From Escherichia coli (GTDB lineage: Bacteria; Pseudomonadota; Gammaproteobacteria; Enterobacterales; Enterobacteriaceae): a DNA stretch of 64,000 nucleotides. Positions 45,701-48,700 of the stretch are shown in pieces; within the stretch, counting starts at the first letter, position 1, and every line of letters starts with the position of its first letter. The stretch is taken from the NCBI RefSeq assembly GCF_051903065.1, contig NZ_CP178439.1; one strand, written 5' to 3'. The position numbers are program-made.

Positions 45701-48700
45701 CCGGGAAGTCTTTTTCCGTTGGTGCGCCTGCTGACACCCGCCGCTTCGGTTTTGTTCAGAAGGATGACTGTCATCCGGAACGCAGGCTCATGACCCACCT
45801 TTCAGCGCAGGGAATGCAGGCCAACCAGCAGATATTTTTTCTGTCCGACGGCGCGGATAATCTCAGGGACCTCCAGTTCGGTATGTACCCTGAGTCAACG
45901 CATGTGCTGGACTGGTTTCATATCACCATGAGGCTGAAGGTGCTCATGCAATATGCCCGGGGACTGCTGGTATCAGATCCAGAGGCGGGGAGTAAAGTTC
46001 TGGCACTGCTGGAAAGCATTAAACGATATCTCTGGCATGGCAATGTTGTCGCTGCGCTGGAACATATTGATAATTGCGTTATGTATTGCGATGACCCTGA
46101 ACTCAGCTATCCTAGCCTGAAATCCCTGCAAAAACATCTGGATGAAATGTATACCTACATCCGGAATAATAAGATGATGATCCCAAACTACGGCGAAATG
46201 CGTCGGTACGGAGAGCCGGTATCAACCGCGTTTGTGGAATCCACGATCAATGAAGTGATCGCCAGACGAATGGCCAAAAAGCAGCAGATGCAGTGGAGCA
46301 GAAAAGGGGCTCATTATTTGTTACAGACCCGGACCGCCGTTTTGAATAACGAACTGCAGGATAAATTTGTCTGCTGGTATCCGGGTTTTCAAAGTGACGG
46401 GAAGGGACCAGCGATGGCAGCATAGCTCACGCTGCCCCAATATTTTTTATGCTCTCGGTCGTATGGAAGCTGGACCGCCTCGGTCGTGATCTTCGTCATC
46501 TCATTAATACAGTGCACGACCTGACCGCGAGGGGGACCGGTCTGAAAGTGCTGACCGGTCACGGGGCGACTATCGACACAACAACGGCCGCTGGCAAGCT
46601 TGTCTTCGGTATCTTTGCCGCACTGGCGGAGTTTGAGCGCGAACTGATTGCTGAAAGAACGACTGCAGGTCTGGCATCAGCAAGAGCCCGTGGGCGGAAC
46701 GGCGGCCGACCTTATAAAATGACGCCAGTCAAACTGCGACTGGCAATGGCATCAATGGGACAATCAGAAACAAAGGTCAGTACGCTATGCCAGGAACTTG
46801 GGATAACCCGGCAAACTTTGTACAGGCATATTTCCCCTGTTGGTCAACTGCGGGCGGACGGGATCAAGCTGCTCAACCGTGGATAATTTGAACGGACGGA
46901 AAAATCTGGGGTTCCGGCGTAGTACCCCTATCACCTCCACATTTTTGCAACAGTGCCTTATAAATGGCAGCCTTATGTTTACTTGCCAAGATGGGCTACC
47001 ATATGATGTTTTATACTGAGCAATATTAATATTATCTTTAATGGAAAAATTAAGCCCACTAAGTGACCCACTGCTATATGGCTCTATTGTGAAGACGCCT
47101 GAGGGTAAAAATTTATACATGGTTGTCCCTATGTCTATTATTGCAAGGTTGACAATATTATTCGTTTTATAAATTTGAGCGTTTAAAATCACACATCAAA
47201 GCAATTAGTCAGGATAAACAACAATACCCAGTGCTTCGAGAATCAGTTCTTGCTGCCAGGCTGCAATTTTGATACCTGATGTATCGACTTTGCGGGGATC
47301 TAAACCGTCGAGTTCGGCGTGGCATAAATTGGCACCCTGTAGGCTAAATTGCCCCCAGACATCTTCGGAAAAAACACCTCGACTTAAGTCTGACTCTTTC
47401 AGTGATGCACCCGCTAGGTTCGTTCCTATCCAGCGATTTTCAAACAACTCACATTTTTCTAAACAAACCCTCTCCATATTGGCATAGGAAAGATTACATC
47501 CAGAAATAAATGCTGAGCAAAAGTACATACGATTACTCACTTGATGGGCAAAGTTTGTTCGGGAAAAGTTGGCACCTTTTAAATCACACGCACGGAACTC
47601 TATACCGTAGCAATTGGCATTACTGAAGTTTGCCATCGCAAGTTGGCATTGTTGGAAACTTGCATCACGAAGATCTGCGACATCAAAGTGGCAGCCTTCG
47701 ATATCACCCTGTTCAATGAACTTGCAGTTGACGAATGTCGTATCACGCAAGTTAGCACGTCGAAAGTCGCTGCGAATGAATGTGCAAGCGGTGAAGGTGA
47801 GATCACTTAAGTCTTTATGTGAAAAGTTGTGGTGCCGATATGTATGATTGTAGGTTTCCATGAGTACTCCTTGTTGAAAGGAGGGCTAGACTACCATTAT
47901 ACATATGCCAAGACATTAAAATAAAAGCCTGTTACATCAACACATTACAACCCCTCAATTTACCTGTTTTAAGTGGTCAAATTGGCGCGTAGAGCGCCTA
48001 TCGCTCTTGCATTGGCACGCGGCCCTGTTGAAAAAAGTTATTCGCTTTAGATAGGGTTAGGAGAGCCGTGCTTCGCCGGTAAAAAATCGGACTATCCGAC
48101 GCAGGGCGGACTCATCGGCGGAGAAGCAAACTTTGACTATATCTCCCTACACTTGGAAGAGGGCTAGACTGGCCCCATAGATCACCAGACACTTCGACTC
48201 TCTTAAAATAAGAGGTAGTCTTGGAACTATGTTTAATACCAGTCAGAACGATAAGATGGTTGAAGTGTTATCAGGACCTGAGCGGCGTCGGCGTCGTACA
48301 CCGCAGGAAAAAATTGCCATTATTCAGCAGACTATGGAGCCCGGTATGACCGTGTCTCATGTCGCGCGCCTGCATGGCATCAATGCAAACCAGATATTCA
48401 AATGGCGCAAGCAATATTAAGACGGTTCACTGACGGCTGTTGCATCGGGCGAGGAAGTGGTGCCGGCCTCCGAACTCGCTGCCGCCAATAAGCAAATTCG
48501 CGAACTCCAGCGCCTTCTGGGCAAAAAGACGATGGAAGCCGAGATACTCAAAGAGGCCGTGGAGTTCGGCCGGGCAAAAAAATGGATTGCGCATGCGCCC
48601 TCGTTGCCTGGGAACGACGAATAAGCGACGTTTGCAGAAGTCTTGGCGTGTCGCGTGCGCAGTTGAGCATTCGGGTTCACCGGCCATCTGACTGACAGGA

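What the first reader, a model, noticed from the sequence alone, without database searches (positions are those of the whole stretch)
46944..46957. Solitary IS26-type terminal inverted repeat downstream of qnrS1
The 14-mer TTTGCAACAGTGCC occurs in the AT-rich region 3' of qnrS1 with no adjoining IS26 sequence. It could be a relic of an earlier IS6-family insertion or a chance match.
Basis: seen in the sequence. Interest (0 to 1): 0.2.

Follow-up and report, generated by a model that had tools for sequence, protein, structure and literature searches.

The report
Relic end of IS26 relative beside qnrS1
The lone 14-base IS26-type repeat next to the quinolone-resistance gene qnrS1 is the last 29 bases of a deleted, unnamed cousin of IS26, and it marks exactly where DNA taken from a marine Vibrio-type chromosome was cut; it is an inert scar, mildly useful for tracing how qnrS1 became mobile.

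Summary
The 14-mer TTTGCAACAGTGCC is at 46944-46957 and is not a chance match. About 0.0005 exact copies are expected in 64 kb, and it is the only copy in the window without an IS26 body.

Three results show it is a relic.
1. Identity to complete IS6-family elements extends inward to 29 bp (46929-46957). It is 29/29 with two 819-bp elements (one has the Serratia marcescens transposase WP_046899122.1), 28/29 with a Serratia liquefaciens plasmid element, and only 24/29 with IS26. These elements are 89-92% identical to IS26.
2. The outer tip (46957|46958) coincides to the base with the start of homology to native qnrS-amidase loci (Photobacterium sp. DA100, Vibrio mytili, an Edwardsiella plasmid). 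There an intact amidase gene reads through the site and no 14-mer exists. In the window the amidase is cut after about codon 60.
3. The inner edge (46928|46929) abuts the 3' flank of the Tn6292-type tnpR.

The same junctions occur in at least 1,860 PLSDB plasmids. No longer version of the IS was found beside qnrS1.

I found no sign of present function. It is an ordinary kind of feature with modest value for tracing qnrS1's origin.

The parts
46944..46957 (+). 14-bp IS26-type terminal inverted repeat (the finding). The tip points right, towards qnrS1, so the IS body would have lain to the left.
   Evidence: Exact match. It is the only copy in the window without an IS26 body.
46929..46957 (-). 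Full 29-bp relic: the transposase-proximal (IRL) end of an IS26 relative. Read on the minus strand it is GGCACTGTTGCAAAAATGTGGAGGTGATA.
   Evidence: 29/29 with complete 819-bp elements in L012 and L013, 28/29 with the L014 Serratia liquefaciens element, 24/29 with IS26.
46958..47120 (-). Truncated 5' part of a Vibrionaceae amidase gene (about 60 codons by L001 numbering, with a 12-nt deletion and a 1-nt frameshift). It is the native downstream neighbour of qnrS. Bases 46958-46965 (TTATAAAT) would be one copy of the 8-bp target duplication if the junction arose by simple insertion.
   Evidence: The minus-strand translation MYKFLPSGVF..TIEPYSSGSLSGLNFSIKDNINIAQYKTSYGSPSWQ / SKHKAAIYKAL matches the N-terminus of the intact 406-residue amidase in L001. 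The gene is also intact in L027, L004, L005 and L008.
47205..47861 (-). qnrS1
   Evidence: NCBIfam QnrS family 516.8 bits against a cutoff of 460; 100% identical to QnrS1 in about 2,000 plasmids.
47862..48073 (.). Native Vibrionaceae DNA upstream of qnrS. It includes the IR-like motif GGCCCTGTTGAAAAAAGTTA at 48021-48040, which is native sequence and not a second relic.
   Evidence: 88-91% identical to V. mytili, Photobacterium DA100 and L001. The motif is present in all three.
48074..48161 (+). 89-bp fragment of a Tn3-family tnpA pseudogene, also found next to qnrS in the Edwardsiella plasmid.
   Evidence: 96.6% identical to L001 5684-5772. The L001 reading frame shows Tn3-family TnpA C-terminal motifs.
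48162..49282 (+). Truncated IS2-like / ISEcl2-type IS3-family element, cut by a Tn3 38-bp IR at 49283-49320.
   Evidence: IRL-like TAGACTGGCCCC at 48166; orfA 48229-48420 hits the IS2 repressor TnpA family; the literature names it delta-ISEcl2 (PMC5027574).
46449..46886 (+). N-terminally truncated serine resolvase (delta-tnpR of Tn6292 in published nomenclature).
   Evidence: Serine recombinase family hits; PMC5027574 and PMC7319535 describe tnpR / delta-tnpR next to qnrS1.
46887..46928 (.). 3' flank of tnpR with an imperfect hairpin (GGGGT..ACCCC, 46908-46928). Its homology to other plasmids ends at 46928, which fixes the inner edge of the relic.
   Evidence: The roughly 35-bp stretch 46895-46929 is 91-97% identical in more than 1,000 unrelated plasmids. 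In Arsenophonus it overlaps the end of a recombinase gene.
45031..46425 (+). ISKpn19 (ISKra4-family) transposase gene. The IS end is at about 46456 and truncates tnpR.
   Evidence: NCBIfam ISKra4 family 380.7 bits against a cutoff of 205; plasmid alignments break at 46456/46457.

Best explanation
Bases 46929-46957 are a non-functional scar: the last 29 bp (transposase-proximal, IRL end) of an IS6-family element that was a close relative of IS26, about 90% identical, of a type found today in Serratia.

Shown: the outer tip of this element is joined to codon ~60 of an amidase gene that natively follows qnrS in Vibrionaceae chromosomes. An IS6-family transposition event therefore created this junction.

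Inferred: that event was either (a) insertion or cointegrate formation into the amidase gene, linking the qnrS-bearing Vibrio fragment to the IS and its replicon, or (b) an IS-mediated adjacent deletion that trimmed a larger, already captured fragment.

Shown as an outcome, mechanism unknown: a later deletion removed the remaining ~790 bp of the IS and joined the 29-bp stub to the 3' flank of the Tn6292-type tnpR.

All of this happened before qnrS1 spread, because the same two junctions are found in essentially all sequenced qnrS1 contexts that keep this region. The stub has no transposase, no partner IR in the right orientation and no predicted promoter, so it does nothing today beyond marking the left edge of the captured DNA.
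For: - Exact 14-mer, with about 4.8e-4 expected by chance.
- Identity extends to 29/29 with complete 819-bp IS6-family elements bounded by perfect 14-bp IRs (L012 2595-3413, L013 3684-4502) and 28/29 with L014, against 24/29 for IS26.
- The L013 transposase is an intact 234 aa and scores 271.7 bits against the IS6-family cutoff of 125. It is recorded as an 'IS6 family transposase' of Serratia marcescens.
- Homology to native or uninterrupted contexts starts exactly at 46958. L001 and L027 read ...CACACAAGGCA|TTATAAATGGCAGCC... through an intact amidase ORF, with no 14-mer.
- Amidase-qnr synteny is seen in four further Vibrionaceae-type genomes.
- Homology of the tnpR flank to unrelated plasmids ends at 46928, so the relic fills the gap exactly.
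- At least 1,864 PLSDB records carry 46880-47204 at 99% identity or more.
- A chimeric query (IS end plus delta-amidase) found no one-piece junction longer than the relic in PLSDB or in 5,426 complete E. coli genomes.
- The relic 25-mer with any other right flank is absent from 100,044 species-representative genomes. In metagenomes it occurs only as the ends of the two full-length elements.
Against: - No intermediate with a longer piece of the IS next to delta-amidase-qnrS1 was found, and neither was the reciprocal junction (the rest of the amidase gene beside the other IS end). An 8-bp target duplication therefore cannot be shown, and insertion versus adjacent deletion cannot be distinguished.
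- The direct donor of qnrS1 (99% identity or more) was not found. The best native contexts are 91-93% identical, so the uninterrupted state is inferred from relatives.
- The known hosts of the parent-type IS are Serratia, not Vibrio, so where the event took place is unknown.
Confidence: 0.9

Rival explanations
1. Chance occurrence of an IS26-like 14-mer in AT-rich intergenic DNA.
For: Two-mismatch look-alikes do occur by chance or in native DNA, for example 47645 inside qnrS1 and 48021 in native Vibrio sequence.
Against: The exact 14-mer is expected 4.8e-4 times. Fifteen more bases match natural IS ends (29/29). The tip coincides to the base with a homology break, and the 14-mer is absent from all native contexts.
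Confidence: 0.01
2. A relic of IS26 itself whose subterminal bases have since mutated.
For: The 14-bp IR is identical to that of IS26, and IS26 is abundant in the window and in qnrS1 plasmids.
Against: There are 5 differences from IS26 in 15 subterminal bases, while the flanking DNA is at least 99% conserved across about 1,900 plasmids. The same 15 bases are 15/15 identical to IS26 relatives found in Serratia and in metagenome contigs.
Confidence: 0.04
3. A still-functional solo end: either a surrogate end used by Tnp26 supplied in trans from nearby IS26 copies, or the -35 box of an outward hybrid promoter.
For: IS26-type IRs contain TTGCAA, which (from general knowledge of IS26) can act as a -35 box. 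An intact IS26 lies 3 kb to the left with an IR in inverted orientation relative to the relic.
Against: No promoter-like site uses the relic's TTGCAA, and outward transcription would be antisense to qnrS1. The flanks 43142-43149 (CTCACTCT) and 46958-46965 (TTATAAAT) do not form a target duplication. The relic never appears with a different right flank in the genome scan, and in the metagenome scan only as the ends of the two complete elements. The nearby insertion in pKFS-D29_2 lies 20-24 bp away and has a 5-bp duplication, so it is unrelated.
Confidence: 0.03
4. The boundary of a non-autonomous cassette (a mobile insertion cassette or MITE, as described for qnrS2) that encloses qnrS1 between IS6-type inverted repeats.
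For: I noticed an IR-like motif, GGCCCTGTTGAAAAAAGTTA, on the other side of qnrS1 at 48021.
Against: The orientation is wrong: the relic's tip points towards qnrS1, so qnrS1 lies outside the element the IR belonged to. The 48021 motif is native DNA, present in V. mytili, Photobacterium DA100 and L001, and homology runs through it.
Confidence: 0.01

Closest known systems
IS26 (IS6 family) and its truncated remnants in resistance regions
   Same: Identical 14-bp terminal IR. The relic is the transposase-proximal end. It sits at a junction created at the IR tip, as IS26-family events do. Truncated IS26-family ends are common in multiresistance regions, and this window also has a truncated IS26 at 37421-38202 and a truncated IS6100 at 37100-37420.
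   Different: The subterminal 15 bp differ from IS26 at 5 positions. The parent belongs to a lineage 89-92% identical in nucleotides to IS26, with a transposase about 95% identical (223/234), which PGAP names only 'IS6 family transposase'. Only 29 bp survive.
IS26 relatives in Serratia (S. marcescens WP_046899122.1-type element, as in L013/L019-L021; S. liquefaciens p1-159 element, L014)
   Same: 29/29 (L012, L013) or 28/29 (L014) identity with the relic. They are 819-820 bp long, have perfect 14-bp IRs, and encode a 234-aa IS6-family transposase.
   Different: They are complete elements in unrelated contexts (next to feoAB, or on an IncI1-typed plasmid). None is adjacent to qnrS or amidase DNA. 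Which lineage member was the actual parent cannot be told from 29 bp.
Published qnrS1 platforms: Tn6292 (tnpA-res-tnpR-qnrS1-deltaISEcl2-IS26-orf198; PMC5027574) and the IS26-blaLAP-2-qnrS-IS26 unit (PMC7319535)
   Same: The window has the same gene order: IS26, ISKpn19, delta-tnpR, qnrS1, delta-ISEcl2.
   Different: In the passages I read, those descriptions treat the DNA between tnpR and qnrS1 as unannotated and credit ISEcl2 with acquisition. They do not mention the IS6-type relic or the amidase fragment.
qnrS2 mobile insertion cassette (22-bp IRs, 5-bp direct repeats; summarised in PMC10434038)
   Same: A qnrS allele associated with short inverted repeats and no transposase.
   Different: qnrS2 is enclosed by its IRs. 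Here a single IR faces qnrS1 from outside, belongs to a different IS family, and has no partner.

Membership tests
IS6/IS26-family insertion sequence (is this a piece of one?) | 14-bp terminal inverted repeat GGCACTGTTGCAAA | tested here: met
   Exact match at 46944-46957.
IS6/IS26-family insertion sequence (is this a piece of one?) | Sequence inside the IR continuous with that of complete family members | tested here: met
   29/29 with the L012 and L013 elements, 28/29 with L014, 24/29 with IS26.
IS6/IS26-family insertion sequence (is this a piece of one?) | IR tip lies at a junction with unrelated target DNA | tested here: met
   Homology to intact amidase-qnrS loci begins at 46958; the uninterrupted loci read through the site.
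IS6/IS26-family insertion sequence (is this a complete, autonomous IS?) | Adjoining DDE transposase gene of the IS6 family | tested here: not met
   The DNA to the left is the tnpR 3' flank and a serine resolvase gene. It is therefore a relic, not an IS.
IS6/IS26-family insertion sequence (is this a complete, autonomous IS?) | Second, inverted IR about 820 bp away | tested here: not met
   No partner IR between 46000 and 46943. The nearest GGCACTGTTGCAAA on the + strand is the end of the intact IS26 at 43150.
IS6/IS26-family insertion sequence (is this a complete, autonomous IS?) | 8-bp target site duplication | not testable with these tools
   The other junction no longer exists at this locus, and the reciprocal junction was not found in PLSDB.
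IS26 itself (same IS, or an isoform) | Near-identity to IS26 (ISfinder convention recalled from memory: isoforms are at least 95% identical in nucleotides) | tested here: not met
   The relic is 24/29 against IS26. The elements carrying the relic-type end are 89.2-91.6% identical to IS26.
Parent elements L012/L013/L014 as IS6-family ISs | Transposase passes the curated IS6-family model; about 820 bp; perfect terminal IRs | tested here: met
   L013 Tnp scores 271.7 bits against a cutoff of 125. The elements are 819-820 bp with identical 14-bp IRs at both ends. The L012 copy is frameshifted.
Mobile insertion cassette / MITE enclosing qnrS (qnrS2-type) | Gene enclosed between two inward-facing IRs with flanking direct repeats | tested here: not met
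   There is a single IR whose tip faces qnrS1. The candidate partner at 48021 is native Vibrionaceae sequence.

The most novel reading that the evidence does not exclude
The relic is the fossil of the founding capture event. On this reading an unnamed IS26 relative of the Serratia type, rather than ISEcl2/IS2 as usually suggested, made the first link between a roughly 1.1-kb qnrS fragment of a Vibrio mytili / Photobacterium-like chromosome and a Tn6292-type transposon. The truncated amidase gene would then be a synteny tag that can pinpoint the still-unconfirmed donor species of qnrS1.
Probability: 0.35. Interest if true: 0.5.

Novelty: new member of a known kind. Interest (0 to 1): 0.3.

Why it matters
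qnrS1 is one of the most prevalent transferable quinolone-resistance genes. A systematic review of resistance-gene origins lists its origin as not confirmed and names only 'IS2' as the associated mobile element (PMC7782503).

This analysis adds three things:
- The relic fixes, to the base, the left edge of the DNA that came from the donor chromosome.
- The flanking 'AT-rich spacer' is really the 5' end of the donor's amidase gene, which is a usable synteny marker.
- An IS26-family element acted at that edge before the gene spread.

In practice, annotators can label 46929-46957 as a truncated IS26-like end and 46958-47120 as a truncated amidase gene, instead of leaving them blank. Donor-hunting can search for qnrS-amidase loci at 99% identity or more. 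In itself the feature is an inert scar of a well-known kind.

Tried and rejected
1. **A second IS6-type relic at 48021-48040.** I proposed that GGCCCTGTTGAAAAAAGTTA, together with a reverse-frame peptide loosely resembling the Tnp26 C-terminus, meant qnrS1 was flanked by two directly oriented IS copies. Rejected: the motif is native in V. mytili, Photobacterium DA100 and L001, and homology runs through it.

2. **46891-46928 as the 38-bp terminal IR of a Tn3-family transposon inserted into the IS.** Rejected: the stretch overlaps the 3' end of a recombinase gene in Arsenophonus, it occurs in plasmids without any Tn3-type boundary, and the closest resolvase relative (77.5%) lies in a tniABQ-recombinase module.

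3. **Exact-pattern scan of 100,044 species-representative genomes** for the relic with a non-qnrS1 right flank: zero hits.

4. **Search for an ancestral arrangement** with more of the IS next to delta-amidase (chimeric query): only two-piece matches to ordinary IS26 lying further left.

5. **Search for the other half of the amidase gene on plasmids:** only the Edwardsiella plasmid and a Photobacterium 2.1-Mb replicon, neither next to an IS6-type end.

6. **Plasmid variants with left boundaries near the relic** (46977 and 47108): these are a romA-ramA insertion with a 5-bp duplication and a junction beside a truncated IS26 next to a TnAs1-family transposase gene, not junctions at the relic.

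7. **Literature searches** (papers read) found no description of the relic. The 2018 Clinical Microbiology Reviews article on mobile elements was not held, so an earlier mention there or in subscription journals cannot be excluded.
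Full report
**Observation.** The 14-mer TTTGCAACAGTGCC is at 46944-46957 on the + strand. The window holds ten exact copies. 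Eight are the ends of four intact 820-bp IS26 copies, and one begins a truncated IS26 (37421-38202). The copy in question is the only one with no IS26 body.

**Local anatomy, left to right:**
- ISKpn19 (ISKra4-family) transposase gene, 45031-46425.
- An N-terminally truncated serine resolvase, 46449-46886.
- A 42-bp 3' flank containing an imperfect hairpin, 46887-46928.
- The motif and the bases immediately to its left.
- An AT-rich stretch.
- qnrS1 on the minus strand, 47205-47861.
- About 300 bp of upstream DNA.
- A truncated IS2-like (ISEcl2-type) element from about 48162.
- A Tn3 terminal repeat at 49283.

This matches published qnrS1 platforms. In those the resolvase is the tnpR of a proposed Tn3-family transposon, Tn6292, and the arrangement 'delta-ISEcl2, qnrS1, delta-tnpR, ISKpn19, IS26' is described (PMC5027574 and PMC7319535).

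**The similarity extends beyond the 14-mer.** Aligned with the IS26 copies in the window, the bases to the left of the motif match the transposase-proximal (IRL) end of IS26 at 10 of 15 further positions: TATCACCtCC against TATCACCaCC (P about 8e-4). This gives the orientation. The IS body lay to the left and the IR tip points right, towards qnrS1.

**The outer edge is a true junction.**
- A distant search with the qnrS1-downstream DNA found an Edwardsiella ictaluri IncC plasmid (L001). It carries a qnrS5-like gene followed by an intact 406-residue amidase gene.
- The window aligns to it at about 94% from 46958 through qnrS to 48073, and again over 48073-48161.
- At the left end L001 reads ...CACACAAGGCA|TTATAAATGGCAGCC... 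within the amidase ORF (...AAIYNALCVDQ...). The window reads ...TTTGCAACAGTGCC|TTATAAATGGCAGCC... (...AAIYKAL, then the IR).
- So 46958-47120 is the 5' end of that amidase gene, about 60 codons by L001 numbering, with a 12-nt deletion and a frameshift. It is cut exactly at the IR tip.

**Native contexts.**
- The amidase has close homologues next to a qnr gene in Vibrio rumoiensis (94%), Vibrio sp. S17_S38 (96%) and Motilimonas (93%). V. mytili CAIM 528 has one too, but a contig end cuts its amidase.
- A Photobacterium sp. DA100 2.1-Mb replicon (L027) has the complete pair.
- The window's 46958-48073 is 91% identical to L027. Over 47018-48073 it is 93.4% identical to the V. mytili contig, which carries ordinary housekeeping genes upstream.
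- QnrS1 matches the V. mytili protein at 212 of 219 aligned positions. A similar resemblance was noted in passing in PMC9774513.
- None of these loci contains an IS26-type 14-mer, even at two mismatches, at or near the junction.

**The parent element.**
- Scanning species-representative genomes for the relic 25-mer with a different right flank gave nothing.
- The same scan of metagenome contigs gave two hits. Both are complete 819-bp elements bounded by perfect 14-bp IRs, and their terminal 29 bp are identical to window 46929-46957.
- They are 89-90% identical to IS26 and 91-92% identical to each other.
- One encodes an intact 234-aa transposase that is 223/234 identical to Tnp26 and passes the curated IS6-family model (271.7 bits against a cutoff of 125). 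The other is frameshifted.
- The intact transposase is an exact match to a Serratia marcescens protein, WP_046899122.1. It occurs in three NCBI assemblies and three read-set assemblies, always beside feoAB.
- The best PLSDB relative is an element on a Serratia liquefaciens plasmid. It is 92% identical to the L013 element and its end matches the relic at 28/29.
- NCBI's annotation names these proteins only 'IS6 family transposase', while true IS26 copies in the same 90% cluster are named 'IS6-like element IS26 family'.
- The relic therefore comes from an IS26 relative, not from IS26. IS26 matches only 24/29.

**The inner edge.** The ~35 bp after the resolvase stop (46895-46929) recur at 91-97% identity in more than 1,000 otherwise unrelated plasmids. 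In Arsenophonus they overlap the 3' end of a recombinase gene. That homology stops at 46928. The relic therefore fills exactly the interval between two independently defined boundaries, 46928|46929 and 46957|46958.

**Distribution.**
- At least 1,864 PLSDB records carry 46880-47204 at 99% identity or more.
- A chimeric query joining 300 bp of the parent-type IS end to 300 bp of delta-amidase found no record, in PLSDB or in 5,426 complete E. coli genomes, with a one-piece match longer than the relic.
- Both junctions therefore pre-date the spread of qnrS1 in Enterobacterales.
- Plasmids with a nearby boundary are later, unrelated events. One is a romA-ramA insertion at 46977-46981 with a 5-bp duplication. 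The other is a boundary at about 47108 beside a truncated IS26 next to a TnAs1-family transposase gene.

**Mechanism.**
- Shown: an IS6-family end is joined at its tip to an interrupted donor gene, and all but 29 bp of the IS are gone.
- Inferred: the junction was made either by insertion or cointegrate formation into the amidase gene, or by an IS-mediated adjacent deletion that trimmed a larger captured fragment. The existence of L001, a plasmid with the intact amidase and the same right-hand Tn3-family delta-tnpA neighbour, makes the second route plausible.
- Not explained: the deletion that joined the stub to the tnpR flank.
- I found no sign of present function. No promoter-like site uses the relic's TTGCAA. 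There is no target duplication pairing it with the IS26 at 43150. It has no alternative right flank in the genome scan, and in the metagenome scan only as the ends of the two complete elements.

**Comparison with what is known, and novelty.**
- Truncated IS26-family ends are commonplace, so the kind of feature is known.
- What appears to be undescribed in the literature I could search is this particular relic, its origin from an unnamed IS26 relative, and the identity of the adjoining 'spacer' as a truncated Vibrionaceae amidase gene. The searches were made.
- The origin of QnrS is listed as unconfirmed, with 'IS2' as the associated element (PMC7782503). The relic and the amidase tag therefore bear modestly on an open question.
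- I rate it as a new member of a known kind, interest 0.3.

Noticed in passing
window 38567-43977: Two directly oriented IS26 copies (38575-39394 and 43150-43969) are flanked by the same 8 bp, CAATTTCT (38567-38574 and 43970-43977). This is the signature of an IS26-bounded 5.4-kb unit inserted with a target duplication. The copy at 43150 differs from the others by 2 nt (Tnp ...RIINATL... instead of ...RIIGATL...).
   Followed up: partly
window 37100-38202: The last 321 bp of IS6100 (IR GGCTCTGTTGCAAA at 37100) are cut by an IS26 that starts at 37421 and is itself truncated after 782 of 820 bp. This gives two more IS6-family remnants in the same window.
   Followed up: partly
window 48074-48161; L001 5213 to about 6150: An 89-bp piece of a Tn3-family tnpA pseudogene adjoins the native DNA upstream of qnrS1. 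The Edwardsiella qnrS5-like plasmid has the same neighbour in longer form. The two plasmid contexts share this derived neighbour although their Vibrio-derived DNA differs by 3-12%, which I cannot explain.
   Followed up: partly
L011 (Vibrio mytili CAIM 528 contig NZ_JXOK01000026.1), L027 (Photobacterium sp. DA100, NZ_CP119424.1 635609-646627): These chromosomal qnrS-amidase loci are 93% and 91% identical to the qnrS1 context. The V. mytili locus is 97% identical to the Edwardsiella qnrS5-like plasmid context. None reaches 99%, so the direct donor of qnrS1 remains unidentified, but this clade is where to look.
   Followed up: partly
window 47881-47892 and 48159-48170: The 12-mer GAGGGCTAGACT occurs just upstream of the qnrS1 start (native sequence, GAGGGCTATACT in relatives) and again at the start of the ISEcl2-like element. 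This may be chance or a target-site resemblance.
   Followed up: no
L017 (E. coli pKFS-D29_2, CP125008.1), equivalent to window 46977-46981: A 1.5-kb Klebsiella-type romA-ramA segment is inserted 20-24 bp to the right of the relic with a 5-bp direct repeat, GTTTA. A chromosomal efflux-regulator gene has thus been moved in beside qnrS1 by an unidentified element that makes 5-bp duplications.
   Followed up: partly
window 46908-46928 (minus strand): The imperfect hairpin GGGGT..ACCCC, followed on the minus strand by AGATTTTT, lies just beyond the relic in the direction of qnrS1 transcription. It could act as the terminator of the qnrS1 mRNA, although the simple terminator scan did not call it.
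   Followed up: no
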